From: Pseudomonadota bacterium
GTDB taxonomy: Bacteria; Pseudomonadota; Gammaproteobacteria; Ga0077536
Direction: 5' to 3'
Assembly: GCA_031418675.1 (NCBI GenBank)
Contig: JANOXY010000151.1
Span: 1-34,624 of the forward strand
DNA: 34,624 bases
Shown here: piece after piece, positions 277 to 24,487 of the stretch
Layout of the letters: every line of letters begins with the position of its first letter
Numbering within the stretch: position 1 is the first letter of the stretch
The notes under the pieces: model-generated
Seen by the model: only the letters and a program-made list of their open reading frames with translations
Told to the model about the DNA's origin: nothing
Database searches by the model: none
Translations under genes and position numbers: made by a program

Positions 277-363
277 CGAAGGACTGGAGTTAACCGACAA
301 GTGACAGACGCTGCCGCGCCGCACCGGGTCGACTTATCCGCAAAAATTAAGGAGTACACAAGC

Positions 364-1029
364 ATGTCGCTGCTGACGAATACCGTCGAGCAATCGATAG
401 CCAAGCTGCTGGCGCATTGCCACCGTCGAGTTTTTTCGACCAAGGCGGCCATCATTCGGCAAGGCGATCCGGCCGGTGAACTCTTCTTCATCATTCGCGG
501 TTCGGTGACAGTGTTGTTGGAGGACGATAAAGGACACGAAATTGTCCTCGCCTATCTCAATCCCGGTGAGTTCTTCGGAGAAATTGGACTCTTCAACGAA
601 GACGCCAGCCGCACCGCGCTGGTCCGCGCGCGCGGTGAATGCGAAATCGCGCAAATCGGCTACAAGAAGCTCAAAGCCCTGACCGAAATCTATCCTGATT
701 TAATTATTGCCATGACTTCCCAGCTGGCACGTCGGCTACGGAATACCAATCGTAAGCTCGGCGATCTCGCTTTTATGGATGTGTATGGTCGCGTGGCCCG
801 CACGCTGCTCGATCTTTGCGAGCAGCCCGACGCGATGACCCATCCCAATGGCATGCAGGTGCGTGTCACGCGACAGGAATTGTCGCGTCTGGTCGGCTGT
901 TCGCGGGAGATGGTCGGCAAGGTCCTCAAAGACATGGAAGACCAGAATCATATTTCGGCGACCGGCAAGAACATTGTGGTGCTCGGCGTCAGACCCAAGC
1001 GCCTGCAAACCGCCGGGAAATTTCGCTGA
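364..1029 (+). CDS. crp: cAMP receptor protein CRP/Vfr family transcriptional regulator
   Basis: RBS AAGGAG (349-354) precedes ATG 364. cNMP-binding domain (IIRQGD...LFFIIRGSV...FFGEIGLF...RTALVRA), C-helix RRLRNTNRKLGDLAFMDVYGRVARTL and HTH TRQELSRLVGCSREMVGKVLK closely match Vfr/CRP. Confidence 0.95.
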   Translation: MSLLTNTVEQSIAKLLAHCHRRVFSTKAAIIRQGDPAGELFFIIRGSVTVLLEDDKGHEIVLAYLNPGEFFGEIGLFNEDASRTALVRARGECEIAQIGYKKLKALTEIYPDLIIAMTSQLARRLRNTNRKLGDLAFMDVYGRVARTLLDLCEQPDAMTHPNGMQVRVTRQELSRLVGCSREMVGKVLKDMEDQNHISATGKNIVVLGVRPKRLQTAGKFR

Positions 1030-1414: not shown

Positions 1415-1501
1415 GTGCCGCTAAATCAAGCAGATTTCGACCGGACGCCTTGGCGCGCTTAGGTGGCCACGGCGCTCTCACGCTGCATCCGGAGGACCTC
1501 G

Positions 1502-12772: not shown

Positions 12773-13957
12773 TCAATGCTGCTTTTTTAGCGCCTTCATG
12801 GCTCGTTCCAGGCCATCGATAGTCAGCGGAAACATGCGATCTGTCATGAGTTCCTTGACCATTCCTATCGACGGAATATGACCCCAATATTCTTCCGCTT
12901 GGGGGTTTAACCACACCGCATAGGGAAACACGGAAAGCATGCGCGCTATCCAGGTGGCGCCGGCTTCTTCGTTCCAATGCTCGACGCTGCCACCGACTGC
13001 CATGATCTCATAGGGGCTCATGGTTCCGTCGCCGACGAAAACCAGTTTGTGATCGGCGCCGTAGGTATGCATCACCTTCTGGGTTGGTACACGTACATTG
13101 GCGCGCAGGCTGTTGTCGCGCCACATCGTTTCATAAATGAAGTTGTGAAAATAATAATGTTCGAGATGCTTGAACTCACTGCGTGCTGCGGAAAACAGTT
13201 CTTCGCACACCCGTACATAGGGGTCCATCGAACCGCCGACGTCAAGGAACAGCAGCAGCTTGGTGGCATTGTGCCGCTCGGGCACCATTTTTATGTCGAG
13301 CAGGCCGGCGTTACGCGCTGTCGAACGGATCGTATCCGGCAGATCCAGTTCATCGGCGGCGCCCTCTCGTGCAAAGCGTCGCAGCTTGCGCAGCGCGAGA
13401 TTGATATTGCGCGTACCGAGCTCTACCGAATCATCGAGGTTTTTGAATTCGCGCCGCTCCCAGACCTTGGTCGCGCGCCCATGTTTGCCTTCGTCCTGAC
13501 CGATACGCACGCCTTCCGGGTTATAACCGTGGGCGCCAAACGGTGATGTGCCACCGGTACCGATCATTTTGTTGCCGCCGTGATGGGCTTTTTTCTGTTC
13601 TTCAAGTCGCTGACGCAAGGTTTCCATTAGCTTGTCCCAGCCACCCAGCGCTTCGATCTGTGCTTTTTCCTCCTCAGTAAGATTCAACTCTTTCTGCTTG
13701 CGCAGCCACTCCAAGGGAATCTCACCGAGCAGATGATCAAAAAGCATTTCCTGGCCGCGGAAATGTTCGCCAAACACTTGATCGAAACGATCAAAAAATC
13801 GTTCGTCCTTGACCAGCGAGGCCCGCGACAGGTAATAAAAATCATTGATGCTGAAACCGCACACACGCGCTTCGAGGGCGCCCATCAAGGTCAGATACTC
13901 AGTGATCGACACCGGTATCTGCACCTTGCGCAGCTTGTAGAAGAGCTCAGTTAGCAC
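12773..13957 (-). CDS. VWA (CoxE-like) domain protein, partner of the MoxR ATPase
   Basis: GTG start overlapping the moxR stop by 11 bp. FYYLSRASLVKDERFFDRFDQVF, HGGNKMIGTGGTSPFG, MIDAS-like FLDVGGSMD, YFHNFIYE, VFVGDGTMSPYEI, WLNP. Confidence 0.88.
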   Translation of the reverse strand: MLTELFYKLRKVQIPVSITEYLTLMGALEARVCGFSINDFYYLSRASLVKDERFFDRFDQVFGEHFRGQEMLFDHLLGEIPLEWLRKQKELNLTEEEKAQIEALGGWDKLMETLRQRLEEQKKAHHGGNKMIGTGGTSPFGAHGYNPEGVRIGQDEGKHGRATKVWERREFKNLDDSVELGTRNINLALRKLRRFAREGAADELDLPDTIRSTARNAGLLDIKMVPERHNATKLLLFLDVGGSMDPYVRVCEELFSAARSEFKHLEHYYFHNFIYETMWRDNSLRANVRVPTQKVMHTYGADHKLVFVGDGTMSPYEIMAVGGSVEHWNEEAGATWIARMLSVFPYAVWLNPQAEEYWGHIPSIGMVKELMTDRMFPLTIDGLERAMKALKKQH

Positions 13958-14807
13958 CAGTCGTACGCCTCGACATAAACACCAGGCGCTCAAACAAGTG
14001 CATGTCCTGTTCGTTCTTCAGCATCGCGCCGTAGAGTTTCGGTATCGCGCGGCGGGTGTCTTTTTCCCGTAGCGCTTCGGGTGGAATGTCCTCGGCTACC
14101 AGCAGCTTGATCCAATCCAGCAACTCTGAGGTCGATGGGCGCTTTTTTAAGCCTGGAATCTCGCGCAGTTCAAAGAAACATTCCATTGCTTCAGCGAGCA
14201 GACGCTTTTTGATGTCCGGGAAGTGGACATGAATGATGGAGTCCATCGTCTCGCGATCGGGGAACTGAATGTAGTGAAAGAAGCAGCGCCGCAGGAACGC
14301 GTCAGGTAGTTCCTTTTCATTGTTGCTGGTGATGATGATGATCGGACGGTTCTTGGCTTTGATGGTCTGCTGGGTTTCGTAGACGTAAAACTCCATGCGG
14401 TCGAGTTCCAGCAGCAAATCGTTAGGAAACTCTATGTCTGCCTTGTCGATTTCGTCGATCAGCAGTACCGGCTGGTTGTCGGCTTCGAATGCTTCCCACA
14501 ACTTACCTTTGACGATGTAGTTGGCGATGTCGTTGACGCCTCTTTCGCCAAGCTGTGAATCCCGCAGTCGTGCCACGGCGTCGTATTCATACAGCCCTTG
14601 AGCAGCCTTGGTCGTGGATTTGATGTGCCATTGAATTAGCGGGCGACCGAGCGAACTGGCAATCTCCTCGGCAAGCATGGTCTTGCCGGTGCCCGGTTCA
14701 CCTTTGACGAGCAACGGACGTTGCAAGGTGACCGCAGCGTTCACTGCCATCATAAGGTCTTCGGTTACGATGTATTTATCGGTGCCGGAAAAGCGTTGGT
14801 TCGACAT
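13947..14807 (-). CDS. MoxR family AAA+ ATPase (PA2707-like)
   Basis: Walker A GEPGTGKT, Walker B LLIDEIDKADIEFPNDLL, TSNNEKELPDAFLRRC. Start MSNQRFSGTDKY at ATG 14807. Confidence 0.93.
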   Translation of the reverse strand: MSNQRFSGTDKYIVTEDLMMAVNAAVTLQRPLLVKGEPGTGKTMLAEEIASSLGRPLIQWHIKSTTKAAQGLYEYDAVARLRDSQLGERGVNDIANYIVKGKLWEAFEADNQPVLLIDEIDKADIEFPNDLLLELDRMEFYVYETQQTIKAKNRPIIIITSNNEKELPDAFLRRCFFHYIQFPDRETMDSIIHVHFPDIKKRLLAEAMECFFELREIPGLKKRPSTSELLDWIKLLVAEDIPPEALREKDTRRAIPKLYGAMLKNEQDMHLFERLVFMSRRTTGAN

Positions 14808-14836
14808 GTGGCCCACAGGTGTTGAAATACAAAGCC

Positions 14837-14867
14837 ATTGTAAAACACGGTCGCGGCCAGGATTCAA
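14837..14867 (-). promoter_or_regulatory. possible sigma70 promoter for moxR-vWA
   Basis: Minus strand TTGAAT-N19-TACAAT, 30 bp upstream of the ATG. The spacer is longer than optimal. Confidence 0.3.
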
Positions 14868-15216
14868 CCACCGGTAACACGACAAACGGCATGCGGCACG
14901 AGAATTACACGCAGTCGGGCCCGGCGCAGCGTGGCGCAGCCTGTTGCCACTGCCTGATTTGCAGCTGCCGTTGGGTCCAGGGCTATCGGCCACCAGGTCA
15001 TTTTTGGGGGCCTACTAGAAAGTGTGGGGACAATCGACGGCTGAGACTTGAGCACGGTCACCGACGCGACCGCAGTGTTGCGCCGCCGGCGGGTTCTAGT
15101 GCGCAGGTCAGCTGCATGACACTGGGTTGGGGGGAGGCCAATCAGGCCGCCGCGTGCCTGACCAGAAGAATTCAATAACACGCTTGCCGCCGTGCACGGT
15201 AGGAGACAATCCCCGC

Positions 15217-18200
15217 TCAGCTGCGCGGTGTGAGTTGTGACCGAATTTCGTCCAACATACTTTGGGCCTGTTGTTTCTGCTGGGCTTTAGCAGCCGCGGC
15301 GCGCGCACGGATACGGTCGACCATATCCTTTTGCCGGGACAGAATCTCCCGTTGCAGGTGGGATTCCTGGGCGTCGTCCTGTTCGCCCACCCAGTCCTTG
15401 AGTTCCTTGTGCAATAGCTGATTGATCTCGGTGGCGGTGTTATAGGTCCGCTCGAGTTCGTCTTCATGTTCCTCTGCGGCGTTAACGATAGCGGACTCGG
15501 CTTCGATGGCTTGGGCAAGTTCGCGGCTGGCCGCTGACGCGCGCTCTTCGATTTCGCTGATATGACTATCGATTTCACGGGCGGTGGCGGCGCTTTCGGC
15601 GGCGGCCTTGCGGCTACGAGCCGCGGCAAGTTCGCGTTCAGCGGCGACTTTGAACGCTTCTGCTTCCTTGCGCGCACGCACGGCCTCGGTTTTGAGTTTT
15701 TCAATGCGTTCGGCTTCGGCGCGCAGTTTTTCGCGCTCGCGTGCAAATAAGGCCTGCTGCTCCGCCAGCAGGTTCTGCTGCTGACGCTTGTACTCGGCGA
15801 TCGTGTGTTGCGCATCGGCTGCGGTGGCTTCTTTGGCGGCAATTGCCGCAGCCCGCTCTTCGCGTGCCCGGTCAAGCTCAGTGGTGGCGTGGGATACCGC
15901 CAGTTCGAACTTGTGGCGCTCGCTTGCCAGTTCTTTACGCAAGGCATCACGCAGTTCCGCCTCTCGTCCAGCCTGCATGGATTCGAGCTTGTCAGCCTGT
16001 TGCTGGTAAAGCTCGGCGAGGCGACGTTCTTCGTCTTGCAGGCGCAGCGCTGCCGCGCGCTCGAGTTCTTCGAGTCGCTTGTCCACCTCGGCGTGTTCTC
16101 GCGCAACCGCTTCTTCGGCCAGTGCTTGCTGTGTGAGCAATGTGGCTTTGAGTTTTTCGGCTTCAGCCAGGCGCGTGGTCAGGAGTTCGGCCTCGCGCTC
16201 AATGCGCTGTTGCTGTTCTTGCAAACGTTGACGGCTAGCGGCTTCCGCTGCGCTGGAACGTTGTTGCCGCTCAAGATCTGCTTTGAGCTGCTCGACTTCG
16301 GCGAGCTTTTCGTCGAGCTCGAGGGCTTCCTGCTGGATGCGCAATTGTTCTTCGACGAGGCGCTGGCGGGCGCTTTCTGCACGGGCGGCCTCCCGCTGCC
16401 GTTCGGCAAGATCGGCCTTGAGCTGCTCGGCTTCGGCCAGGCGCGCATTGAGCAAGGCTGCTTCGCTTTCCATGCGTTGTTGCAGTTCCTGTGCGCGCGC
16501 GGCCAAGGCTTCTTCGTGCAGCCTGGCCTGGGCAGCAATCTCAGCTTGTTGTGCTGCCAAGGCAATTTGCGCAGCCTGCTCACGGCTGGCGGCCTCAGCC
16601 TGGCGCCGTTCGAGCTCAAGACGACTGGCCTGCTCGCGGGCTGCAACTTCAGCTTGCTGGCGCTCAAGCTCGGCACGCGCGGCCTGTTCGCGGGTGGCGG
16701 CGTCGACTTGTAGGCGTTCGAGCTCGGCACGCGCTGCGTGTTCACGGGTGGCGGCTTCGGTTTGCAGGCGCTCGAGCTCGGCGCGCGCGGCCTGCTCACG
16801 AGCCAAGGTTTCAGCTTGTCGACGTTCGAGCTCCGCCCGGGCGTTTTGGTCGCGCGCCGATGTCGCCTGCTGGCGTTCGATTTCCATACGTACGGCGAGC
16901 TCGTGTGCCGCCACTTCGCTCTCGCGCCGTTCGGCTTCTGCGCGCTTTGCCTGCTCGCGTGCTTGCACCTCGGCCTGCTGGCGAATAGCTTCGGTCTGGG
17001 CTGCACGTTCACGTTCTGCCAGCGCGTTTTTGAGCGACTCGGCTTCAGCCATTTTGCGCTCGAGTGCCGAGAACTCGGCCGCCAGCCGCGCCCGTTCACG
17101 TTCGAGTTTTTCGGCTACGTATTGTTCTGCTTCAGCCTTCATGGCCTGCGCTTCGGCCATCATTTTCTGGGCTTGTTCGATGGTCAGATCCGCTTTCGCG
17201 ACCTCGGCACCGAGTGATGAGGCCCGCGCGGCGGCCTCCAGCACGGCATCGGCAGGCGGCGGCGCTGCGACCACCACGGGTGCGACAGCGGAGACCACCG
17301 GTGCTGTCAGGCCGGGCGCCTCGCGCGCTGTTGCTGGTGGGCCGGCCACCGGCGTAGGTTCAGCGAGTGCGCCGTCTTCGACAAAACAAACCTCGAAGCC
17401 CCGCTCGGCGAGCAGAAAAGCCGCCGCTGAGCTGCGACCGCCGGTGTCGCAATAAGCAACGTAGCGACCGGAGTTGTCGAGTTCGCCGGCGCGGGTCCGC
17501 AGCACGCCAAGCGGAATGTTGAGACTACCGGGCAGGCCGTTGTGGGCATGTTCGTCTTCAAAGCGCACGTCCAACCAGCGCGCGCCAGCGGCGACTAATC
17601 GCTCAGCCTCCGCTCGGTCGACCTGGTTCAAGAGGGGTGCTTTGACCAGCCGCGTGAAGTCGGCCTTAGTTAACCGCGCCAGCTCGCCGGCGGAGGTCAT
17701 GCGTACCGTGGCGTTACGGCGCGCGCCTGAAATCAGCGCCTCCTCACCAAAGGTATCACCGGGGCCCAGTTCGGCCAGCCGTATCTCACGTTTGTTGCTG
17801 CCTTTGCGTACCACTTCGCAGGTGCCGCTTTGCACCGCGTAGTAATAATCACCAGGCTCACCCTGCTTGATGACCTCATCGCCGGCCGCGACCGAGACCG
17901 CCTCCAGGGTATCGAGCAGACCCTGAATATTGGACGGTGGGATGCGGGTGAACAGTTCCGACTGCAGCAGGGTCATTAGCCAGTCGCCCGATTGACCAGC
18001 TTCCATTTCTTCCACTTCAACGCCGCTGGGGATGCCGTTATCGCCATCGACCGGGCTGTCCAGGCTGAGCAATTGTTCAAGCAAGCTGCGCCGCACGCGC
18101 AGCACATTTGCCTTGGTTTTTGCGATGGCTGTCATCTGTCGCGGCTGAAGTTGTGCCAAAGGCTGAAAGGATGCGCCTTCGCCGCCGCTAACTCGTTTGA

Positions 18201-18411
18201 TAAGCGATTCGTCAGCGAACATTTCGAGGTCGCCGTCTAGTATGTAGAAGGTAAAGTCGTCGCGGTCGCCCTGTCTGAACAGGGTCTCCTTCTTGCGTAG
18301 CTCGATTACGTCGGATTGGGCAAGCAGGCGCGACTGTCGGTCGGCCGGCAGCTTGTTGAGCGGAACCAGAAAAGCGAACCGAGATTTAAGTGATTCTTGA
18401 TCTACTGCCAT
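15217..18411 (-). CDS. tandem cNMP-binding domains + rhodanese + long coiled-coil protein (paralog A, 1064 aa)
   Basis: CNB-1 (LFRQGDRDDFTFYILDG...AQLQPRQMTAIA), CNB-2 (VIKQGEPGDYYYAVQSG...FGEEALISGARRNATV), rhodanese (WLDVR...LPGSLNIP...YCDTGGRSSAAAFLLAERGF), Pro/Ala linker, then ~675 aa E/A/R/Q-rich helical tail. Confidence 0.92.
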   Translation of the reverse strand: MAVDQESLKSRFAFLVPLNKLPADRQSRLLAQSDVIELRKKETLFRQGDRDDFTFYILDGDLEMFADESLIKRVSGGEGASFQPLAQLQPRQMTAIAKTKANVLRVRRSLLEQLLSLDSPVDGDNGIPSGVEVEEMEAGQSGDWLMTLLQSELFTRIPPSNIQGLLDTLEAVSVAAGDEVIKQGEPGDYYYAVQSGTCEVVRKGSNKREIRLAELGPGDTFGEEALISGARRNATVRMTSAGELARLTKADFTRLVKAPLLNQVDRAEAERLVAAGARWLDVRFEDEHAHNGLPGSLNIPLGVLRTRAGELDNSGRYVAYCDTGGRSSAAAFLLAERGFEVCFVEDGALAEPTPVAGPPATAREAPGLTAPVVSAVAPVVVAAPPPADAVLEAAARASSLGAEVAKADLTIEQAQKMMAEAQAMKAEAEQYVAEKLERERARLAAEFSALERKMAEAESLKNALAERERAAQTEAIRQQAEVQAREQAKRAEAERRESEVAAHELAVRMEIERQQATSARDQNARAELERRQAETLAREQAARAELERLQTEAATREHAARAELERLQVDAATREQAARAELERQQAEVAAREQASRLELERRQAEAASREQAAQIALAAQQAEIAAQARLHEEALAARAQELQQRMESEAALLNARLAEAEQLKADLAERQREAARAESARQRLVEEQLRIQQEALELDEKLAEVEQLKADLERQQRSSAAEAASRQRLQEQQQRIEREAELLTTRLAEAEKLKATLLTQQALAEEAVAREHAEVDKRLEELERAAALRLQDEERRLAELYQQQADKLESMQAGREAELRDALRKELASERHKFELAVSHATTELDRAREERAAAIAAKEATAADAQHTIAEYKRQQQNLLAEQQALFAREREKLRAEAERIEKLKTEAVRARKEAEAFKVAAERELAAARSRKAAAESAATAREIDSHISEIEERASAASRELAQAIEAESAIVNAAEEHEDELERTYNTATEINQLLHKELKDWVGEQDDAQESHLQREILSRQKDMVDRIRARAAAAKAQQKQQAQSMLDEIRSQLTPRS
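16090..16452 (-). repeat. ~135-bp (45-aa) tandem repeat in paralog A, ~2.7 copies
   Basis: LNARLAEAEQLKADL..., LDEKLAEVEQLKADL... and LTTRLAEAEKLKATL... are spaced exactly 45 aa apart. Confidence 0.75.
16522..17001 (-). repeat. 54-bp (18-aa) tandem repeat in paralog A, ~9 copies
   Basis: ARAELERRQAETLAREQA / ARAELERLQTEAATREHA / ARAELERLQVDAATREQA / ARAELERQQAEVAAREQA / SRLELERRQAEAASREQA, plus more diverged flanking units. Confidence 0.9.
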
Positions 18412-18450
18412 GAGGCGCTCGTTGTTGAAAAACCCGCTTTTTGGCGCGGA

Positions 18451-18657
18451 TCAGGCGTCGAGATCGGGGATTAGCTGGCTTTTCCAGCGCGCGATCTGGT
18501 CCTTGAGCTGCAGCTTGCGCTTCTTCATGCGACGCAGTAGCAGCTGGTCCACATCGATACGACTCGACAGTGTATTGACTACTTCGTCCAAATCACGGTG
18601 CTCAGTTTGCAATTCCAGAATACGGCGCTGGATGGACTTTATCTCCTCGGTGACCAC
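18451..18657 (-). CDS. DUF465/YdcH family small coiled-coil protein
   Basis: ELQTEHRDLDEVV...LLLRRMKKRKLQLKDQIARW...IPDLDA is the DUF465 signature. GTG start at 18657 with GGGA upstream; 39 bp gap to paralog A. Confidence 0.88.
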   Translation of the reverse strand: MVTEEIKSIQRRILELQTEHRDLDEVVNTLSSRIDVDQLLLRRMKKRKLQLKDQIARWKSQLIPDLDA

Positions 18658-18859
18658 GACTCGCTTCCCGGGCTGGCTGAACTGCCAACATTCTACGCTG
18701 ATTCGATTAGCGCGCGGACCAGCTGACCAGGCACTGGCGACAGGCTCCAAGGGACAGCCGTTTCCAGGGGCAGCCATGATTACAAACCCAGGCTGGGCGT
18801 CACCAGGCAAGTGTGGGGCAGCCAAAGTCGGTCACAGATCTGCGCGCCGGATCGCGGGA

Positions 18860-18881
18860 GATCGTGATCCGGTTCACATTT
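18860..18881. promoter_or_regulatory. CRP/Vfr binding site in the divergent promoter region
   Basis: gatCGTGAtccggtTCACAttt: 9/10 match to the core TGTGA-N6-TCACA and 16/22 to the full consensus AAATGTGATCTAGATCACATTT. Intergenic, between divergent cNMP-binding genes. Confidence 0.75.
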
Positions 18882-19007
18882 GGGTTGGACCGAAGACGAA
18901 CCGCTGCCGCTCTAGGAATAGCCTTATGAACCATGGTCGTCCTGATTTTGTGGGCGGACGGCCGGAGAACAACAATAGCCCCGCGCTCGCTACCCCCTGT
19001 GACCCAC

Positions 19008-22000
19008 ATGTCGGCACTGGAACCTAAATTCGAAACCCTGATCGACACCCTGGTGCCGCTTGCTGCACTGTCGGCGGCGAGCCGGACGCAGCTGCTTGAT
19101 CAGGCCGAAGTGTTGCGCTTTCGGCGCGGGGACATCCTGTTCAAGGAAGGTGACCGCGACACCTACACCATGTACCTGCTCGAAGGCCGGCTCGAATTGC
19201 GCAGCGGTGGCCAGATTGTGCAGCGTCTCAGTGGTGGTACGTCCACAGCCGCCCACCCCATTGCCCAGCTGCAGCCGCGCAAGATGACCGCCAGGGCCGA
19301 GACCCAGGTCGCGGTGTTGCGTGTAGCGCGTGATCTGCTCGACCGCCTGACAGCAGCCGACGGCACCGGCAATTACTGCTCGGTGCAGGTTAACGAGCTC
19401 GACGCCAGCGACGAGGACGACGGCGATTGGATGACGCGCATGCTGCAGTCAAAACTGTTCTCGCGCCTGCCCGCTTCGAACATCCATCGCATTTTCACCC
19501 TGTTCGAGGAATTTGACGTTCGCGAAGGTGAAGAAATTGTCAGTCAGGGCGACCCGGGTGACTACTACTACATCATCGCCCAGGGCCGCTGCGAGGTGAT
19601 GCGTAGTGCCGGCCCCGGCGCGCCCGGTTATCGATTGGCGCTGATCGGGCCAGGGGACGCTTTTGGCGAAGAAGCACTCGTGGCTGGGTCAAATCGCAAT
19701 GCGACCGTGCGCACGCTGTGTGATGGTCAGCTAGTGCGCCTACCCAAAGAAGCCTTCGCAGAATTGATTCAAAAGCCTTTGTTAAGCGGGGTGAACCTCG
19801 AGCAGGGTGAAAATATCCTGGCGACCAAACCGGCCGTGTGGCTCGATGTGCGCTTCCCTGAAGAGCATCAGCGCGACGGTGTGCAGGGCAGCGTCAACTA
19901 TCCGCTGAATACCCTGCGCATGCACTCCGGTCGGCTCGATACTGAGCTTACTTATGTCGTTTACTGTGATACCGGCACGCGCAGCGCGGTAGCCGCCTTT
20001 CTGCTCGCTGAGCGCGGATTTGATGTCCACTATCTCGAAGGTGGACTGATGCGCTACGACATGTTGCCAGCGGCGGCACTCGACCTCAGTGTGCACGACG
20101 GTGACAGCGACTCAGTGACGGCGCCCGTGCCGACCTCGCAAAAGACCGCGCGCGAACTCGGTAGCGACCCTGCGACGCAGGCCGCTGCGTTGAGTGTCGA
20201 ACTTGCCATTACCGATATCCGCATCGCCGATGCCAATGCGGCCATCGCGGGAGCACAGCATGACGCGCGCGATGCAGCCGCGGAGGCCTTGCGCATCGCC
20301 ACCGATCTCGCGCGCCGCGAGGCCGAACTCGAAGCCGGGCAGAAGATTGAAGCCGAGCGCCAACGTATCGCTGCCGAAATGGAGCGCGAGCGGGCCGAGG
20401 TGGAGCGTCGCACCGCCGAAAAACTGCGCGCCGAAAAGAAACGCATTCAAGCCACGGCGGTAGCGGCCCACCGCGAACTGACCGAAGCCCAGCGCCTGAA
20501 AGCCGAAATTGAACAAGCGCGTGTTGAAGTGCAGGCCGCTGCCGTGGCCGCTGCCCAGGGCGACGCGATCGAAGCACGCCGTTTGAAGGACGAGCTGGAG
20601 CAGGCGCGCAGCGCCGCCGAAGCCGCCGCCGCCGCCCATGCTGCACGCGAGCAAGCCGACCGCGAACGACTCACGGCCGAAGTTGAGCGCGCTCGTCTCG
20701 ACGCACAGGCAGCGGCGTCGGCCGCCGCCGCCGCTGCGCAACGCGAGGCCCAGGAAGCCCAGCGCCTCAAGGAGGAAGTGGAGAAGGTAAGAGCCGCCGC
20801 TGAAGCCGCCGCCGCGACCCATGCGGCGCGCGATCAGGTCAAGACCGCGCGTCTGCTGGCGGAAATTGAACAAGCTCGGGCGGAGGCCGAAGCCGCTGCC
20901 ACGGCTGCCGCCGCGGCGACTGCACGCGAGGCCCAGGAAGCGCGCCGCCTCAATGAGGAGCTCGAACGGGTGCGGGCCGAAGTGGAAGCCTCGGCTTCCG
21001 CCCTCGCCGCCCGCGATCAGATCGAAAGTGCTCGTCTGCGCGCCGAAATAGAACGCACGCGTGCTGAAGCCGAGGCGGCCGTCGCTGCTGCTGCCGCTGC
21101 CGCCGAGCGCGAGACCATCGCAGCACAGAACCTGAAAGAAGAGCTGGAGCGTGCGCGCCTGGAAGCAGAGACGAGCGCCGCCATCATGGCGGAGCGCGAA
21201 GCCCGCGAATCACAACGCCTGAAAGAAGAACTCGAGCTTGCGCGTGCGCAGGCCCACGCCGCCGCCAACGCGGCAGCCGCGGCCGCTGAGCGGGAAGCGG
21301 CACAAACCCAACGCATGCGCGAGGAGCTTGAGCGCGCCCATGCCGAGGCCCAGGCCCGTGCGGCTGCTGCCGCCGAGCGCGACCACGCCGAAGCCGCTCG
21401 CCTCAAAGCCGAAATCGAACGCGCCCATGCTGAGGCCGAAGCGCTCGCTAGCGCTGCGGCGGAACGCGAACGTGCCGACGCCGAGCGCATGCGTATTGCC
21501 CTTGAACAGGCGCGCGCCGAAGCAGCACAGCGCGAACTGGCTGAAGCGCAACGTATCAAGGCTGAGATCGAACGGGCCAAAGCGGAAGCCGATGCCGCCG
21601 TACAGCGCGAACGCGACGCGCAGCGCGAACGGGTTGAGCAGGTGCGCGCCGAAATGGAGCGCCGCTTGGCGGAAGAAGAACGTAAGTTGCGTGAGAGTTA
21701 TGCCTGGCAGGCGGAAGAGCTCAAGCGTCTCAAGAGTCAGAAAGCCGACGCCGAAGTGCGGCTGCGCGAGGAACAGGAGCGTTTGCGCCTGCAGGCGGAA
21801 GAATCGCGCGTACGCCTGGCCGAGGCTCGTGATTACCAGCGCCGTCTGGAAGAAGTCCAAGAAGCCAGTGCCCGCGAAACCGAAATGCGTGAGCAACAGC
21901 AGCTCGCGCTTGAGCGCAGGTTGCGCGAAGAACTCCGTCACAAAGTAAAAGACGAACGTCGCCAGCTCGAAGAGGAGCTGGCCCGCAACGCCGGCGAACT

Positions 22001-22649
22001 CGACCGCGCGCGCCGCGAGCGCGACGCGGCCGAAGCCGCACGGCTCGCCGCCGCTGCCGAAGCAGAGCAAATTGTGTCCGAATTCAAGGACGCCCATGCC
22101 CGCAAGCGGATGCAGGAAGAAGCCGAAATGCGCTTCGAACGCGAGCGACTGGAAGCCGACGCTCGGCGCTTGCGCTTGGCACTCGAACTTGCGCAGCGCG
22201 AAAAGCAGGCGGCACTGGAACAGCAGCGCGCGATCGAAACGGAAATCGCAGACCGCCAGCGCACCGCCGCTGACAGTGATACTGCCGCGGCTTCCGATTT
22301 ACTCGCGTTGCAAGCGCAGGCCCAAACCCTCGCGGAGCAGATCGCGGCCAATGATCGTGCGCAAGCCGACGCCCAGGCCGCGGCAGTGACGTCGGCGGGT
22401 GATCTGGCTGCGCATCGCATCCATGAAGAGCAGGTGCGGGCCGAACTCAAGCGCGAAATTGACGATTGGCTACAAGAGCAGGATGCGGCCGAGAACAATG
22501 TTTCTCAGCGCGGCATCCTCGCCAGCCAGCGCGCCCATCTCGATCGCATAAAACTGCGTGCACAGGCCGTGCGAGCGGCGGCCAAGGCCCACGACCAGGC
22601 GCTCATCAACGAATTGGCCGACAAGCTCAAACGGGGCGAAAGCGACTGA
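19008..22649 (+). CDS. tandem cNMP-binding domains + rhodanese + long coiled-coil protein (paralog B, ~1213 aa)
   Basis: ATG 19008 aligns with the paralog A N-terminus (LVPL motif). CNB-1 (LFKEGDRDTYTMYLLEG...AQLQPRKMTARA), CNB-2 (IVSQGDPGDYYYIIAQG...FGEEALVAGSNRNATV), rhodanese (YCDTGTRSAVAAFLLAERGF), then ~825 aa helical tail. Confidence 0.92.
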   Translation: MSALEPKFETLIDTLVPLAALSAASRTQLLDQAEVLRFRRGDILFKEGDRDTYTMYLLEGRLELRSGGQIVQRLSGGTSTAAHPIAQLQPRKMTARAETQVAVLRVARDLLDRLTAADGTGNYCSVQVNELDASDEDDGDWMTRMLQSKLFSRLPASNIHRIFTLFEEFDVREGEEIVSQGDPGDYYYIIAQGRCEVMRSAGPGAPGYRLALIGPGDAFGEEALVAGSNRNATVRTLCDGQLVRLPKEAFAELIQKPLLSGVNLEQGENILATKPAVWLDVRFPEEHQRDGVQGSVNYPLNTLRMHSGRLDTELTYVVYCDTGTRSAVAAFLLAERGFDVHYLEGGLMRYDMLPAAALDLSVHDGDSDSVTAPVPTSQKTARELGSDPATQAAALSVELAITDIRIADANAAIAGAQHDARDAAAEALRIATDLARREAELEAGQKIEAERQRIAAEMERERAEVERRTAEKLRAEKKRIQATAVAAHRELTEAQRLKAEIEQARVEVQAAAVAAAQGDAIEARRLKDELEQARSAAEAAAAAHAAREQADRERLTAEVERARLDAQAAASAAAAAAQREAQEAQRLKEEVEKVRAAAEAAAATHAARDQVKTARLLAEIEQARAEAEAAATAAAAATAREAQEARRLNEELERVRAEVEASASALAARDQIESARLRAEIERTRAEAEAAVAAAAAAAERETIAAQNLKEELERARLEAETSAAIMAEREARESQRLKEELELARAQAHAAANAAAAAAEREAAQTQRMREELERAHAEAQARAAAAAERDHAEAARLKAEIERAHAEAEALASAAAERERADAERMRIALEQARAEAAQRELAEAQRIKAEIERAKAEADAAVQRERDAQRERVEQVRAEMERRLAEEERKLRESYAWQAEELKRLKSQKADAEVRLREEQERLRLQAEESRVRLAEARDYQRRLEEVQEASARETEMREQQQLALERRLREELRHKVKDERRQLEEELARNAGELDRARRERDAAEAARLAAAAEAEQIVSEFKDAHARKRMQEEAEMRFERERLEADARRLRLALELAQREKQAALEQQRAIETEIADRQRTAADSDTAAASDLLALQAQAQTLAEQIAANDRAQADAQAAAVTSAGDLAAHRIHEEQVRAELKREIDDWLQEQDAAENNVSQRGILASQRAHLDRIKLRAQAVRAAAKAHDQALINELADKLKRGESD
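20493..21600 (+). repeat. alternating 87/96-bp (29/32-aa) tandem repeat forming a 183-bp higher-order unit in paralog B
   Basis: Units starting RLKAEIEQAR, RLKDELEQAR, RLTAEVERAR, RLKEEVEKVR, RLLAEIEQAR, RLNEELERVR, RLRAEIERTR, NLKEELERAR, RLKEELELAR, RMREELERAH, RLKAEIERAH... Four exact 61-aa super-units span 20580-21311. Confidence 0.9.
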
Positions 22650-23234: not shown

Positions 23235-23717
23235 TCAATCACGGAAATTGGTGAACTGGAATGGAAATCCCAGCTTGGCGTTTTTGATCAGTGCGATGAC
23301 TGCTTGCAGGTCATCACGATTTTTGCCGGTTATGCGTAATTGATTCTGTTGCATCTGAGCCTGGACCTTGAGCTTGCTGTCCTTGATCAGCTTGGTCAGC
23401 TTGCGGCCAGTGTCCGCATCGACACCCTCGCGCACCGTCACCGGCAGACGCGCCTCGGCGATGTTGGAATTGAAGTCACCGACTTCCAGGCAATCGATAT
23501 CGATGCCGCGTTTGGCGAGTCGCGTCTCGAGGATCTCCAGCAGTTGCTTGGCTTGAAACTCACCATCGGCGATGATGGTCAGCTTGTTATCTTCGCGTTC
23601 GACGCGCGCTTTGCTGCCCTTGAAGTCAAAGCGCTGGCCAACTTCTCGATTGGTCTGGTCGACGGCGTTAGTGAGTTCGTGTTTGTCGATTTCGGATACC
23701 ACATCGAACGTAGGCAT
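23235..23717 (-). CDS. yajQ: YajQ family nucleotide/c-di-GMP-binding protein
   Basis: MPTFDVVSEIDKHELTNAVDQ...RFDFKGS...IKDSKLKVQAQ...LRITGKNRDDLQAVI...QFTNFRD. RBS GAGGAGG. Confidence 0.95.
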   Translation of the reverse strand: MPTFDVVSEIDKHELTNAVDQTNREVGQRFDFKGSKARVEREDNKLTIIADGEFQAKQLLEILETRLAKRGIDIDCLEVGDFNSNIAEARLPVTVREGVDADTGRKLTKLIKDSKLKVQAQMQQNQLRITGKNRDDLQAVIALIKNAKLGFPFQFTNFRD

Positions 23718-23797
23718 TGACGGAACCTCCTCTCGGCCGGGGCGGAAGTATAGCGTGTGGGCGTCGCGAGGCGGCGTGTGTCCAGCCATGAGCAGCA

Positions 23798-24487
23798 ATG
23801 ATGTTTGAAGTAATCACCTTCGACCTGGACGACACGCTGTGGGACGCACGACCTGCGCTGCTGCGCGCCGAACAGCTGCAGCACACCTGGATTGTCGCTC
23901 ACGCACCGCGCCTCGCGGCCGCCCACGACAATGAATCCTTACGTCGTTGGCGCTGGGAGTTGGCCAGCAAACGCCCGGACATCGCCCACGATTTCACGGC
24001 ACTGCGCCTGCTTGCATTGCGCGAGCAACTGACCACGTTTGGCTACGATCCGGCGCTTGCTGAGCCCGGCATTGCGCTGTTTGTGCACGAGCGTAGCGTG
24101 GTGACGCTCTACGCCGATGTGCGCCCGGTGCTGGCAGACCTCAGCCGCGATTTCACCCTCGTGGCCTTGACCAATGGCAATGCCGACCTTGAAGTCGCGG
24201 GGGTCAGCCCCTATTTCGCCTTTTGCATCTCACCCGCCGAAGCGGGCGTGCAGAAGCCCGACCCGCGCATGTTCGAAGTCGCACTGGCACGGGCCGGCGT
24301 CAGCGCGGCGCGTGCCGTGCATGTCGGCGACCAGCCGCTGTACGATGTCGAAGGTGCGCGCCGAGCGTCACTCGCCAGTGTGTGGCTGAACCGTGGCGGG
24401 CAAGCATGGCCCGACGACTACGCGCGACCTCAGGCTGAAATTGCCTCCTTGACTGAGCTGCGTGCCGCGCTGGCGCGTATTGTTTGA
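23798..24487 (+). CDS. HAD-IA family hydrolase (YigB-like phosphatase)
   Basis: Motif I FDLDDTLWD, motif II ALTNGN, motif III KPDPRMF, motif IV HVGDQPLYDVEGA. Confidence 0.9.
   Translation: MMFEVITFDLDDTLWDARPALLRAEQLQHTWIVAHAPRLAAAHDNESLRRWRWELASKRPDIAHDFTALRLLALREQLTTFGYDPALAEPGIALFVHERSVVTLYADVRPVLADLSRDFTLVALTNGNADLEVAGVSPYFAFCISPAEAGVQKPDPRMFEVALARAGVSAARAVHVGDQPLYDVEGARRASLASVWLNRGGQAWPDDYARPQAEIASLTELRAALARIV

What the first reader, a model, noticed from the sequence alone, without database searches (positions are those of the whole stretch)
15217..22649. Candidate novel system: divergent pair of giant cNMP-sensing rhodanese coiled-coil proteins under CRP control
Seen: two head-to-head paralogs share a ~350-aa head (CNB-CNB-rhodanese, with common motifs AQLQPR, DWxxxxLQSxLFxRxPxSNI, GDYYY, FGEEAL..RNATV, YCDTGxRS..AAFLLAERGF). 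Each has a Pro-free E/A/R/Q helical tail (~675 and ~825 aa, about 100 and 120 nm at 0.15 nm per residue) and a shared C-terminal motif, with no signal peptide or TM. Between them sit a DUF465 gene and a near-consensus CRP box, and crp is in the same window. Established: tandem CNB domains resemble PKA regulatory subunits, and P. aeruginosa CbpA is a Vfr-induced protein with one degenerate and one intact CNB that localises to the pole in a cAMP-dependent way. Inference: cAMP both induces these genes and switches the proteins, which may form hetero- or homo-oligomeric filaments, tethers or molecular rulers with a sulfurtransferase/redox head. I know of no characterised protein with this full architecture.
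Basis: partly seen in the sequence, partly recalled or inferred. Interest (0 to 1): 0.85.

Follow-up and report, generated by a model that had tools for sequence, protein, structure and literature searches.

The report
CRP-controlled cAMP-sensor rhodanese rod proteins
Two old paralogous genes encode very long, mostly helical proteins whose heads look like cAMP sensors fused to a sulfur-transfer domain; they sit with a small conserved gene behind a conserved CRP-type binding site, forming an uncharacterised module found in a minority of Gammaproteobacteria.

Summary
Genes A (15217-18411, minus strand, 1064 aa) and B (true start 19008, to 22649, 1213 aa) share a head of degenerate CNB, intact CNB and Cys-bearing rhodanese. 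Each has an Ala/Glu/Arg/Gln-rich, nearly Pro-free helical tail and a shared C-terminal module.

Additions and corrections:
- DUF465 (68 aa) is the first gene of the A operon, 39 nt upstream of A.
- A MoxR-like AAA+ gene and a CoxE-like VWA gene follow A.
- The box TGTGA-N6-TCACG has invariant half-sites and a drifting spacer in 15 of 15 close loci. It recurs about 100-165 nt upstream of the B-type gene in other GTDB families.
- The A/B duplication is old.
- The C-terminal module occurs only in this family: 54 of 54 long hits carry the head. It was found in 21 of 400 sampled genomes of the class.
- The DUF465 orthologue is far more widespread (138 of 400), so it is not a dedicated partner.
- A canonical heptad coiled coil is not shown. 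The conserved C-terminal third is amphipathic, with a period of 3.63.

My literature searches found no characterised protein with this architecture. cAMP binding, sulfurtransferase activity, oligomerisation and cellular role remain inference. Verdict: a real, conserved, uncharacterised non-transcriptional cAMP-effector module, a new variant of a known kind.

The parts
301..1029 (+). crp (cAMP receptor protein / Vfr-like global regulator)
   Evidence: Pfam cNMP_binding + HTH_Crp_2 + Crp. NCBIfam CRP equivalog NF008732, 311 bits against cut-off 266, residues 22-231. The recognition helix reads ...SREMVGK....
12773..13993 (-). VWA protein, CoxE-like (394 aa in relatives; start probably near 13957)
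   Evidence: Pfam VWA_CoxE, 37.2 bits against cut-off 26.4. It follows the AAA gene with an 11-nt overlap in relatives. Present wherever enough downstream DNA was held: 10 of 14 close loci, and L058-60, L066-68, L076-77.
13947..14993 (-). AAA+ ATPase, MoxR/midasin-like (about 300 aa in relatives)
   Evidence: Pfam AAA and AAA_5. The best PDB sequence hits are midasin AAA modules. No PADLOC family at full length. It lies downstream of A in close loci, and directly after DUF465 where A is missing.
15217..18411 (-). Gene A: CNB(degenerate)-CNB-rhodanese head plus helical tail, 1064 aa
   Evidence: Orthologues are 731-1076 aa. The A-type clade holds the paralogs downstream of DUF465 from GTDB families f1, f204 and f16.
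18064..18369 (-). A, CNB-A: degenerate phosphate-binding cassette (SFQPLAQLQPR; Gly and Glu of FGE lost, Arg kept)
   Evidence: Alignment A2 of 41 heads: P90 in 39 of 41, R91 in 34 of 41, no G-E. The AF2 model shows a beta-barrel plus helices.
17632..17985 (-). A, CNB-B: intact phosphate-binding cassette FGEEAL...RNAT
   Evidence: F221, G222, L226, R232 and N233 in 41 of 41; E223 in 37 of 41. Pfam best stretch is 172-257.
17371..17628 (-). A, rhodanese domain with active-site-type loop C-D-T-G-G-R
   Evidence: Pfam Rhodanese, 37.3 bits. Cys321 in 36 of 41 and R326 in 35 of 41 aligned heads. The Cys is lost in the 339-aa Pseudomonadales relatives.
17212..17370 (-). A, Pro/Ala/Val-rich linker
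   Evidence: Sequence. Low conservation (identity 0.29 at residues 351-375). pLDDT below 50 at 352-356.
16237..16986 (-). A, hypervariable, length-variable helical spacer; includes the 54-nt (18-aa) tandem repeat at 16569-16833
   Evidence: Occupancy among 12 orthologues is 0.18-0.50. TRF finds period 54, 4.3 copies, 73% matches.
15220..16164 (-). A, conserved C-terminal helical region (315 aa). The last 100 aa (15220-15519) are the family-specific module with the invariant Trp.
   Evidence: Conservation 0.45-0.72. AF2 gives two helices, 2-188 and 192-311, pLDDT 88.7. Hydrophobic period 3.63 exceeds all 200 shuffles. The profile of the last 100 aa finds 123 representatives, and 54 of 54 long ones carry the head.
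18451..18657 (-). DUF465 gene (68 aa, GTG start), first gene of the DUF465-A operon
   Evidence: Pfam DUF465, 50.3 bits. It lies 39 nt upstream of A. Alignment of 25 orthologues has mean column identity 73%, with invariant EHRDLD, KKRKL.LKD.I and IPDL.A. It is adjacent to family genes in GTDB families f1, f11, f16, f59, f99 and f204.
18690..18695 (-). -10-like hexamer TAGAAT inside the invariant block GCGTAGA.T, about 33 nt upstream of the DUF465 start
   Evidence: Invariant columns G323-T331 in the alignment of 12 intergenic regions. Not listed by the sigma-70 consensus scan, which needs both hexamers.
18863..18878 (.). CRP-type box TGTGAACCGGATCACG, centre 137.5 nt upstream of the B start codon
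   Evidence: Only match in the window. One of 9 strict matches in the 5.34-Mb assembly. Half-sites are invariant and the spacer varies in 15 of 15 loci. Boxes sit at similar distance in distant families.
19008..22649 (+). Gene B: paralog of A, 1213 aa (the ORF opens at 18933)
   Evidence: Orthologues are 897-1472 aa. CNB-A 19053-19358, CNB-B 19446-19793, rhodanese 19803-20057, linker 20058-20267, variable spacer 20355-21482, conserved C-terminal region 21555-22646.
23235..23798 (-). yajQ (DUF520, YajQ-family c-di-GMP-binding protein), convergent with B; a conserved neighbour, with no shown link to the module
   Evidence: Pfam DUF520, 200 bits. NCBIfam YajQ equivalog, 205.8 bits against cut-off 146. 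Beside B in most f1 loci and in L082, L084, L087.

Best explanation
This is a conserved, chromosomally encoded cAMP-effector module of a subset of Gammaproteobacteria. The window comes from an uncultured freshwater-sediment lineage.

Components:
- Two anciently duplicated proteins, A-type and B-type. Each has a PKA-regulatory-subunit-like head: a degenerate CNB, a canonical CNB and a Cys-bearing rhodanese domain.
- A Pro/Ala linker follows the head.
- Next comes an Ala/Glu/Arg/Gln-rich alpha-helical spacer whose length changes freely through repeat gain and loss.
- The protein ends in a conserved amphipathic helical region of about 300 aa, closing with a family-specific module of about 100 aa.

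Proposed working (inferred):
1. cAMP-CRP binds the conserved TGTGA-N6-TCACG box about 100-165 nt upstream of the B-type gene and activates it. DUF465-A has its own promoter and may or may not share this control.
2. cAMP also binds the intact second CNB of each head. As in PKA-R and Epac, this changes how the head packs against the rhodanese domain, and so changes its activity or its partners.
3. The conserved C-terminal region bundles the helices, within one chain or between chains (A with A, A with B), and docks the protein.
4. The variable helix holds the sensor/rhodanese head at a distance from that dock.

DUF465 and, in families f1 and f204, a MoxR-type AAA+ / CoxE-like VWA pair are co-located and may act on the same assembly.

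Shown: domain make-up, residue conservation, gene order, the footprint of the box, the age of the duplication and the taxonomic spread. Inferred: ligand, catalysis, oligomeric state, localisation and physiological role.
For: Domains and residues:
- Pfam CNB x2 plus Rhodanese in both proteins.
- The profile of 41 heads hits PKG and PKA-R tandem CNBs at 1e-56 to 1e-37, and thiosulfate sulfurtransferase at 5.6e-21.
- The AF2 head has pLDDT 86.5. The Foldseek top hits are PKA RI-alpha and PKG I-beta tandem CNBs at 5e-20.
- In CNB-B, F, G, L, R and N of the cassette are in 41 of 41 heads. CNB-A lacks Gly and Glu. The rhodanese Cys is in 36 of 41.

Regulation:
- The box half-sites are invariant and the spacer varies in 15 of 15 loci, at a fixed distance from the B start.
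- Among 29 further loci, boxes with at most 1 mismatch lie 100-165 nt upstream of a family gene in L058, L059, L060, L066, L067, L068, L077, L079, L080, L082, L083 and L073. The background in those loci is 0.089 boxes per kb.
- CRP passes its equivalog model. A class I cyaA and 6 class III cyclase-domain matches are in the genome.

Conservation of the module:
- The divergent pair is in G000 and 14 of 24 relatives of the same GTDB family.
- The block yajQ / B / box / DUF465 / A / AAA / VWA is seen in every close locus as far as the held DNA reaches: B, DUF465 and A in 14 of 14, AAA in 12 of 14, VWA in 10 of 14.
- Two paralogs with DUF465 recur in f204, f99, f59 and f16.
- In the head tree, the tail-bearing clade has 54 of 64 rows (SH-aLRT 95). 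The A-type clade has 17 rows (SH-aLRT 95) and spans f1, f204 and f16.

Tail:
- It is all-helical in AF2.
- The conserved C-terminal region has hydrophobic period 3.63, above all 200 shuffles.
- A-tail and B-tail profiles align at probability 99.5.
- The C-terminal module is found only with this head: 54 of 54 long hits.
Against: - No experiment or ligand test exists. cAMP against cGMP or another ligand cannot be told from sequence.
- The residue after the catalytic-type Cys is Asp in 31 of 41 heads. From my own knowledge, this is unusual for thiosulfate-binding loops.
- Whole-tail heptad periodicity is not significant. The A peak of 1.55 compares with a shuffle maximum of 1.41; the B peak of 1.30 compares with 1.32. 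The spacer may therefore be a single helix or only loosely structured.
- Tail length is not conserved (A 731-1076 aa, B 897-1472 aa). This argues against a precise ruler.
- The DUF465 orthologue occurs in 138 of 400 sampled genomes, against 21 of 400 for the family. In 11 of 12 sampled loci without the family it has no such neighbours. Adjacency could be partly historical.
- AAA/VWA linkage was seen only in f1 and f204.
- In 4 single-copy distant loci (L084-L087) no box was found near the gene.
- The strict box is not enriched genome-wide: 9 sites in 5.34 Mb. Another CRP/FNR-family protein could be the binder.
Confidence: 0.55

Rival explanations
1. The tails form true homo- or heteromeric coiled-coil rods or filaments: a cAMP-gated cytoskeletal or polar scaffold. 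A and B co-assemble, and that is why both paralogs are kept side by side.
For: - Two adjacent paralogs are retained in many lineages: 11 of 21 positive genomes have two copies, and the duplication is old.
- The C-terminal region is amphipathic, with conserved hydrophobic spacings of 3, 4, 7 and 11.
- A Methylococcales relative gives a weak Pfam 'Filament' hit, E 2.5e-4, below the cut-off.
- By recall, CbpA localises to the pole in a cAMP-dependent way. I saw only its title in reference lists.
Against: - There is no significant heptad signal over the whole tails.
- The middle of the tail is Ala/Glu/Arg-rich with only 16-18% large hydrophobic residues. That composition fits a stable single helix as well.
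- Some lineages keep one paralog only: G011, G012, G015 and L084-L087.
Confidence: 0.25
2. The head is chiefly a regulated sulfur-trafficking enzyme. cAMP gates a rhodanese that passes persulfide sulfur to a client. The co-located MoxR AAA+/CoxE-like VWA pair is a cofactor-maturation chaperone for that client. The tail is a spacer or tether to the client complex.
For: - The catalytic-type Cys-X4-Arg loop is kept in A, B and head-only paralogs: 36 of 41.
- The AAA+ and VWA_CoxE genes lie directly downstream, and fuse into a DUF465-AAA-VWA operon where A is missing.
- By recall, CoxD and CoxE act in the sulfuration and Cu insertion of CO dehydrogenase.
Against: - AAA/VWA linkage is confined to f1 and f204 among the loci examined.
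- No candidate client enzyme is conserved in the neighbourhood.
- Asp after the Cys and loss of the Cys in some relatives (L052-L054) show the fold can persist without catalysis.
Confidence: 0.15
3. The box is bound by a different CRP/FNR-family regulator, or the CNB domain senses a ligand other than cAMP (cGMP or none). In that case the module is not a cAMP circuit.
For: - The genome holds many CNB proteins: 14 matches to the head query, including several short CNB-only frames.
- The strict box is rare and not enriched.
- The cassette reads R-N-A-T rather than the R-S-A of CAP or the R-A-A of PKA (the comparison is from recall).
Against: - The half-sites are the classical CRP/Vfr ones.
- The window's CRP keeps Arg and Glu of the recognition helix and passes the equivalog model.
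- Adenylate cyclases are present.
Confidence: 0.15
4. The tails are fast-evolving low-complexity extensions without a structural role. The conserved gene order reflects shared ancestry only.
For: - The middle third is hypervariable in length and sequence and contains recent tandem repeats.
- DUF465 is widespread on its own.
Against: - The last 300 aa or so are as conserved as the head and carry an invariant Trp.
- Gene neighbourhood persists through rearrangements from divergent to tandem order across at least 6 GTDB families.
- AF2 gives confident helices, pLDDT 88.7.
Confidence: 0.05

Closest known systems
CbpA (PA4704) of Pseudomonas aeruginosa, a non-transcriptional cAMP-binding protein
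   Same: By recall of Endoh & Engel 2009, it has an N-terminal degenerate CNB plus a C-terminal intact CNB, resembles PKA-R, is transcribed from a Vfr (CRP) site, and has no DNA-binding domain. Here I see the same degenerate-plus-intact order and a conserved CRP-type box.
   Different: As far as I recall, no rhodanese domain, long helical tail or C-terminal module is described for CbpA. Orthology could not be tested. The paper is not held, I had no CbpA sequence, and a search from the Pseudomonadales relative returned only unnamed MAG proteins.
Regulatory subunits of PKA and the tandem CNB-A/B of PKG (eukaryotes)
   Same: Tandem CNB folds are the best sequence and structure matches: 1e-56 to 1e-37 and Foldseek 5e-20.
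   Different: There is no kinase partner, inhibitor sequence or docking/dimerisation domain. The first CNB is degenerate. The head is fused to rhodanese and a tail of 660-790 aa. TM-scores of about 0.3 over the whole head show that only the CNB part matches.
Single-domain rhodanese sulfurtransferases (PspE, GlpE, ThiI C-terminal domain)
   Same: The fold and a six-residue Cys loop ending in Arg are shared. There are weak NCBIfam hits to PspE (41 bits) and ThiI_C.
   Different: Scores are far below those families' cut-offs. Asp follows the Cys. The domain is embedded in a sensor protein.
Bacterial coiled-coil-rich and intermediate-filament-like proteins (crescentin, FilP, Scy, Ccrp) and polar landmark proteins such as FimV/HubP (from recall)
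   Same: These are very long, Pro-free, charged helical proteins without membrane segments, with length-variable repeats.
   Different: Heptad periodicity is not shown. There is no Pfam match above the cut-off. There is a globular second-messenger sensor head. The C-terminal module is unique to this family.
MoxR AAA+ / VWA chaperone pairs (CoxD/CoxE, RavA/ViaA, NorQ/NorD)
   Same: An AAA_5-type ATPase of about 300 aa is followed by an overlapping VWA_CoxE gene.
   Different: No known client enzyme is nearby. Here the pair is linked to DUF465 and the CNB-rhodanese proteins. Any functional link is inferred from gene order only.

Membership tests
CbpA-like / PKA-R-like tandem-CNB cAMP receptors | Two CNB folds in tandem | tested here: met
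   Pfam gives 2 stretches in each protein. The AF2 model shows two beta-barrel domains. Foldseek and PDB profile hits are PKA-R and PKG.
CbpA-like / PKA-R-like tandem-CNB cAMP receptors | Intact phosphate-binding cassette (F-G-E ... R-x-A) in the ligand-binding CNB | tested here: met
   In CNB-B, F221, G222 and R232 are in 41 of 41 heads, E223 in 37 of 41 and A234 in 38 of 41. CNB-A is degenerate.
CbpA-like / PKA-R-like tandem-CNB cAMP receptors | Binds cAMP and changes conformation | not testable with these tools
   Needs ITC, cAMP-agarose or protease protection.
CbpA-like / PKA-R-like tandem-CNB cAMP receptors | Sequence orthology to PA4704 | not tested
   No CbpA sequence was available and the paper is not held. 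One search returned no named Pseudomonas protein.
Rhodanese sulfurtransferase | Rhodanese fold above the Pfam gathering score | tested here: met
   37.3 and 43.1 bits against cut-off 22.2.
Rhodanese sulfurtransferase | Catalytic Cys at the start of a six-residue active-site loop | tested here: met
   C321-D-T-G-G-R326. Cys is in 36 of 41 and Arg in 35 of 41 aligned heads.
Rhodanese sulfurtransferase | Persulfide formation / sulfur transfer | not testable with these tools
   Needs an enzyme assay.
CRP regulon member | TGTGA-N6-TCACA-type site in the promoter region, conserved in orthologous promoters | tested here: met
   The site is at 18863-18878. It is kept in 15 of 15 close loci with a drifting spacer and recurs in distant families.
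CRP regulon member | cAMP-CRP binds the site and changes transcription | not testable with these tools
   Needs EMSA or a reporter. CRP and cyclases are present.
Coiled-coil-rich / intermediate-filament-like proteins | Long alpha-helical, Pro-free rod | tested here: met
   1 and 0 Pro in 664 and 793 aa. AF2 gives helices 2-188 and 192-311 in the last 315 aa.
Coiled-coil-rich / intermediate-filament-like proteins | Heptad (3.5) hydrophobic periodicity along the rod | tested here: inconclusive
   Whole tails peak at 3.60-3.62 and are not clearly above shuffles. The conserved C-terminal region peaks at 3.63, above all 200 shuffles.
Coiled-coil-rich / intermediate-filament-like proteins | Self-assembly into dimers or filaments | not testable with these tools
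DUF465 (YdcH-like) | Pfam PF04325 above the gathering score | tested here: met
   50.3 bits against cut-off 25. A weak PDB relative is HP1242, 1zhc, E 0.0013.
MoxR AAA+ / VWA pair | AAA_5-type ATPase followed by a VWA protein in one operon | tested here: met
   Pfam hits. The two genes overlap by 11 nt in relatives.
Anti-phage defence system | Match to a PADLOC model over the protein | tested here: not met
   There are no hits for A, B, DUF465 or VWA. The AAA gives only short P-loop matches.

The most novel reading that the evidence does not exclude
A and B form a cAMP-gated heteromeric rod, tens of nanometres long. It holds a regulated sulfurtransferase head at a set distance from a docking site bound by the family-specific C-terminal module. 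DUF465 acts as an adaptor, perhaps through its invariant acidic C-terminus IPDLDA engaging the VWA metal site. The MoxR AAA+/VWA pair assembles or remodels the structure. This would be a second-messenger-controlled cytoskeletal or tethering device of a kind not described in bacteria.
Probability: 0.1. Interest if true: 0.85.

Novelty: new variant of a known kind. Interest (0 to 1): 0.6.

Why it matters
In bacteria, cAMP is thought to act almost only through CRP. The review I read in passages (PMC11139211) names CbpA as the one other effector in P. aeruginosa, and its function is still unknown.

Here a whole family appears built on the same degenerate-plus-intact CNB plan. At least 628 protein clusters match the head. 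The tail-bearing form is in about 5% of sampled Gammaproteobacteria. It is extended by a potentially catalytic rhodanese domain and a helical tail of up to about 100 nm, and it sits behind a conserved CRP-type site.

If cAMP both induces and allosterically controls these proteins, they would be a tractable example of a non-transcriptional cAMP output. They would also link second-messenger signalling to sulfur transfer or to cell architecture. The conserved neighbours (DUF465, MoxR AAA+, VWA) offer testable partners, and could give DUF465, a widespread orphan family, its first functional context.

Tried and rejected
1. Complex prediction with three chains: A head (alignment A2), A C-terminal 315 aa (A4) and DUF465 (A5) as the partner. 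The verdict was 'no answer', scores 0.00 and 0.00 against a mark of 0.32, and the controls were not run. This is no evidence either way.

2. Foldseek of the C-terminal model against the PDB gave no match at E <= 0.001. The weak rows are long helical hairpins. The PDB profile search with A4 gave 0 hits.

5. The CbpA paper is not held by DOI or by PMC id, so CbpA features are recalled.

6. Search for CbpA-named relatives from the 339-aa Pseudomonadales homologue: 124 hits, none named beyond 'cyclic nucleotide-binding domain-containing' or 'CRP-like cAMP-binding protein'.

7. Conserved neighbours of head-only homologues in 18 loci: none beyond close kin.

8. A hairpin plus T-run between DUF465 and A as an attenuator: present in the window, not conserved in 12 other loci.

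9. Genome-wide enrichment of the strict box: only 9 sites. My crude ORF mask placed the window's own site inside a spurious ORF, so the coding/non-coding split is not usable.

10. Defence-system reading: no PADLOC support.

11. Reads: all four runs were contigs. RNA run X16 has two 151-nt contigs at 19007-19157 and 19197-19347, with 1 difference each. The tool states that this does not show transcription, since DNA can be in such libraries. Parts of the stretch without RNA cover mean nothing.

12. The sigma-70 consensus scan found no promoter in the A/B intergenic region. It found 2 sites in 11.4 kb, against 2.3 expected.

Full report
WHAT IS THERE

The finding's coordinates hold two divergent genes. 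A is 15217-18411 on the minus strand, 1064 aa. The B open frame runs 18933-22649 on the plus strand, 1238 aa. Every aligned B orthologue begins at MSAL/MSAV, which matches ATG 19008, and the DNA around that codon is conserved while the upstream extension is not. B is therefore 1213 aa.

Pfam finds two cNMP_binding stretches and one Rhodanese domain in each protein, and DUF465 in the small ORF between them. A and B are 40% identical over the head and linker (2e-105) and again over the last ~60 residues (6e-7). At profile level the whole tails align (hhalign probability 99.5, 620 columns).

crp lies at 301-1029 and passes NCBI's CRP equivalog model (311 bits against 266). Its recognition helix keeps Arg and Glu. 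The assembly also holds a class I adenylate cyclase and six class III cyclase-domain matches.

ANATOMY OF THE PROTEINS

I aligned 41 heads: A-type, B-type, head-only and more distant relatives.

- Second CNB. It has a fully canonical phosphate-binding cassette. F221, G222, L226, R232 and N233 are in 41 of 41, E223 in 37 of 41 and A234 in 38 of 41.
- First CNB. It is degenerate. The Gly and Glu of F-G-E are replaced (SFQPLAQLQPR), while the Pro-Arg is kept (39 and 34 of 41).
- Rhodanese domain. It keeps a catalytic-type loop C-D-T-G-G-R, with Cys in 36 of 41 and Arg in 35 of 41. The Cys is lost in 339-aa Pseudomonadales relatives.

AlphaFold2 on this alignment gives a confident head (pLDDT 86.5), with a disordered acidic linker at residues 120-140. 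Foldseek and a PDB profile search both return tandem-CNB regulatory modules of PKA and PKG, and for the last domain thiosulfate sulfurtransferases. No solved chain matches the three domains together.

After the head comes a Pro/Ala/Val-rich linker. It is the only stretch above the Kyte-Doolittle 1.6 mark, but it is Pro-rich and unconserved. The tail follows. It has 1 Pro in 664 aa in A and 0 in 793 aa in B, with A 23-28%, E 18%, R 12-15% and Q 7-10%.

Comparison with 12 A and 11 B orthologues splits the tail into three parts:
- a moderately conserved first ~70 aa;
- a hypervariable middle (A 476-725, B ~450-825) that is absent or different in most orthologues and carries a 54-nt (18-aa) tandem repeat in A;
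- a last 300-360 aa as conserved as the head.

Orthologue lengths range over 731-1076 aa for A and 897-1472 aa for B.

AF2 models the last 315 aa of A as two long helices, 2-188 and 192-311, with pLDDT 88.7.

Hydrophobic periodicity over the whole tails peaks at 3.60-3.62 and does not clearly exceed shuffles. Over the conserved C-terminal region, averaged across 30 sequences, it peaks at 3.63 and exceeds all 200 shuffles. The tails are helical, and their conserved third is amphipathic. A classical heptad coiled coil is not shown. The Ala/Glu/Arg-rich middle could equally be a stable single helix, which is my inference from composition.

THE C-TERMINAL MODULE IS FAMILY-SPECIFIC

A profile of the last 100 aa (36 sequences, invariant Trp) was scored against 1.84 billion representatives. 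It found 123 proteins, always at the very C-terminus. All 54 hits of 560 aa or more carry the CNB-rhodanese head. The 69 shorter ones look like fragments. There is no PDB relative by sequence or by fold.

GENE NEIGHBOURHOOD

DUF465 is 68 aa with a GTG start at 18657. It lies on the same strand as A and 39 nt upstream of it, so it is the first gene of the A operon.

In the 14 close loci from public MAGs the order is yajQ, B (leftward), box, DUF465, A, AAA+, VWA (rightward). B, DUF465 and A are seen in 14 of 14. AAA is seen in 12 and VWA in 10, limited by contig ends.

Within the same GTDB family, the divergent pair is present in G000 and 14 of 24 relatives. In three genera (G011, G012, G015) A is missing and DUF465-AAA-VWA is a tight operon divergent from B.

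In more distant families the parts recur in other orders:
- f204: the full cluster with AAA/VWA;
- f99 and f59: two tandem paralogs divergent from DUF465;
- f16: paralog, DUF465, paralog on one strand;
- f210 and f161: two paralogs without DUF465.

A tree of 64 heads was built with IQ-TREE quick search. I used 43 of the loci held and left out near-duplicates and partial heads. It places all tail-bearing proteins in one clade (54 rows, SH-aLRT 95). It also groups the paralogs that follow DUF465 in f1, f204 and f16 into one A-type clade (17 rows, SH-aLRT 95). The duplication therefore predates these families. Several long branches and open forks mean that the B-type side is less well resolved.

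HOW SPECIFIC IS DUF465?

The DUF465 protein is under strong constraint, with 73% mean column identity and invariant EHRDLD, KKRKL.LKD.I and IPDL.A. But its orthologue group is found in 138 of 400 sampled genomes of the class, nearly always as a single copy. The C-terminal module is found in only 21 of 400. Both tallies include unpublished genomes.

In 12 sampled loci from genomes without the module, DUF465 has no AAA, VWA, yajQ or upstream box beside it. In one of them (L095) it is directly followed by a 776-aa protein with the same head but another C-terminus.

DUF465 is therefore a widespread gene next to which these proteins are repeatedly found. That is suggestive of a link, but it is not a dedicated partner. 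AAA/VWA linkage was seen only in f1 and f204.

THE CRP BOX

TGTGAACCGGATCACG (18863-18878) is the only match in the window and one of 9 strict matches in the 5.34-Mb assembly.

In 15 of 15 close loci the half-sites TGTGA and TCACG are invariant while the six spacer bases drift. In the alignment of 12 intergenic regions the box keeps a fixed distance of about 135 nt from the B start codon. Its distance to DUF465 varies by hundreds of bases. Six of the more distant of these loci have a second box 42-43 bp away.

DUF465-A has its own invariant block GCGTAGA.T (TAGAAT in the window and in most loci; a -10-like hexamer at 18690-18695) about 33 nt before its start.

Among 29 further loci, boxes with at most one mismatch lie 100-165 nt upstream of a family gene in 12 of them. 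The background is 0.089 boxes per kb, and most of that background is these same sites. Four single-copy loci (L084-L087) have none.

This is good comparative evidence that a CRP-type regulator controls at least the B-type gene. It does not prove that cAMP-CRP is the binder.

SPREAD AND HABITAT

The head query finds 628 protein clusters among the 8000 candidates scored. The best 120 all carry CNB plus rhodanese, are 609-1076 aa long, and are named only 'cyclic nucleotide-binding domain-containing protein' or 'CRP-like cAMP-binding protein'. Record titles of the related loci are uncultured Gammaproteobacteria or Pseudomonadota MAGs.

Runs that hold the stretch are mostly freshwater-sediment metagenomes from several studies. 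One of them may be the source. Run X2 carries pieces of up to 3075 nt with 0-3 differences.

The own genome has two more head paralogs: a head-only gene of 353 aa on C476, and a longer one on C639.

WHAT IT MOST LIKELY DOES

Shown: the domain make-up, the conservation of ligand-binding and catalytic-type residues, the operon structure, the footprint of the box, the age of the duplication, and the uniqueness of the C-terminal module.

Inferred:
- cAMP-CRP turns on B, and perhaps the DUF465-A operon.
- cAMP binds the second CNB and, as in PKA-R and Epac, re-packs the head, changing what the rhodanese domain can do or whom it meets.
- The conserved C-terminal third bundles and docks the protein.
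- The variable helix acts as a spacer.

I put about 0.55 on this general reading: a non-transcriptional cAMP effector module under CRP-type control. I put much less on any specific cellular role. The rivals differ mainly in what the tail does (true coiled-coil scaffold or filament, 0.25) and what the head does (regulated sulfur donor working with the MoxR/VWA pair, 0.15). These are not mutually exclusive with the main reading.

COMPARISON WITH THE KNOWN

The nearest characterised protein is P. aeruginosa CbpA. By recall it has a degenerate plus an intact CNB, is Vfr-dependent, localises to the pole and has no known function. I saw only its title in two reference lists and one sentence in a review. 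The paper itself is not held, and I could not test orthology.

The module works like a PKA-R or CbpA-type receptor at its head, and perhaps like a coiled-coil-rich scaffold at its tail. I do not file it as a member of either family.

Full-text searches gave nothing on this architecture:
- 'cyclic nucleotide-binding' + rhodanese + coiled-coil: 2 papers, irrelevant;
- rhodanese + 'cNMP-binding': 5 papers, on encapsulins and others;
- 'coiled-coil rich protein' + 'cyclic nucleotide': 0 papers;
- DUF465: 14 papers, and none of the listed titles or abstract openings concerns its function.

The library lacks most subscription journals, so 'not in print' is limited to these searches.

VERDICT

This is a real, conserved and uncharacterised module. 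I class it as a new variant of a known kind, namely bacterial CNB-domain cAMP effectors. Interest is moderate to high (0.6). The biology is open and testable, but everything beyond sequence and synteny is inference.

Noticed in passing
window 1463-3643 (+) and 3731-5302 (-): Next to crp lie a 726-aa Sel1-repeat protein and a 523-aa protein with a FimV N-terminal Ig-like domain plus TPRs. From recall, FimV-type proteins are polar landmarks tied to cAMP/Vfr signalling in Pseudomonas. No link to A/B was tested.
   Followed up: no
window 23235-23798 (-): A YajQ-family (c-di-GMP-binding) gene is convergent with B. It stays beside the B-type gene in most f1 loci and in some distant ones (L082, L084, L087).
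   Followed up: partly
L069:2362-8316 (-), L070:3136-8256 (-), L043:5725-9999 (+): One relative (G012) has two further giant proteins of 1984 and 1706 aa with the same kind of head (27-32% identity). A Methylococcales MAG has a 1424-aa one whose tail gives a weak, sub-threshold Pfam 'Filament' hit. They lack the C-terminal module by BLAST.
   Followed up: partly
L095:4433-6969 (+): In a genome without the C-terminal module, the DUF465 orthologue is directly followed (stop/start overlap) by a 776-aa protein with the CNB-rhodanese head (E 6e-56) but a different C-terminus.
   Followed up: no
G000:C476:2600-3628 (-) and G000:C639:390-1385 (-): There are two more paralogs of the head in the same genome. 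One is a head-only 353-aa protein whose type is widespread (Stagnimonas, Sulfuritalea, Cellvibrionaceae, Methylomonas MAGs). The other is a longer one of about 630 aa in relatives. No box with at most one mismatch lies near them.
   Followed up: partly
window 18420-18445 (-): A 7-bp stem followed by TTTTT lies between the DUF465 stop and the A start (-14.8 kcal/mol for the 55-nt stretch). It is terminator-like but not conserved in 12 other loci.
   Followed up: yes
whole assembly G000: Only 9 strict TGTGA-N6-TCAC(A/G) sites occur in 5.34 Mb. Either the CRP regulon here uses looser sites or it is small.
   Followed up: partly
window 18454-18474 (-), C-terminus of DUF465: The last residues IPDL(D/N)A are almost invariant in 25 orthologues: 24 have D at the last-but-one position and 1 has N. 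An acidic C-terminal motif next to a VWA gene might be a MIDAS ligand. This is speculation and was not tested.
   Followed up: no
window 19007-19347: A freshwater metatranscriptome run (X16) holds two read-length contigs, 1 difference each, at the very 5' end of gene B. One begins at 19007, one base before the ATG. Contigs cannot show a transcript start, and DNA carry-over is possible.
   Followed up: no
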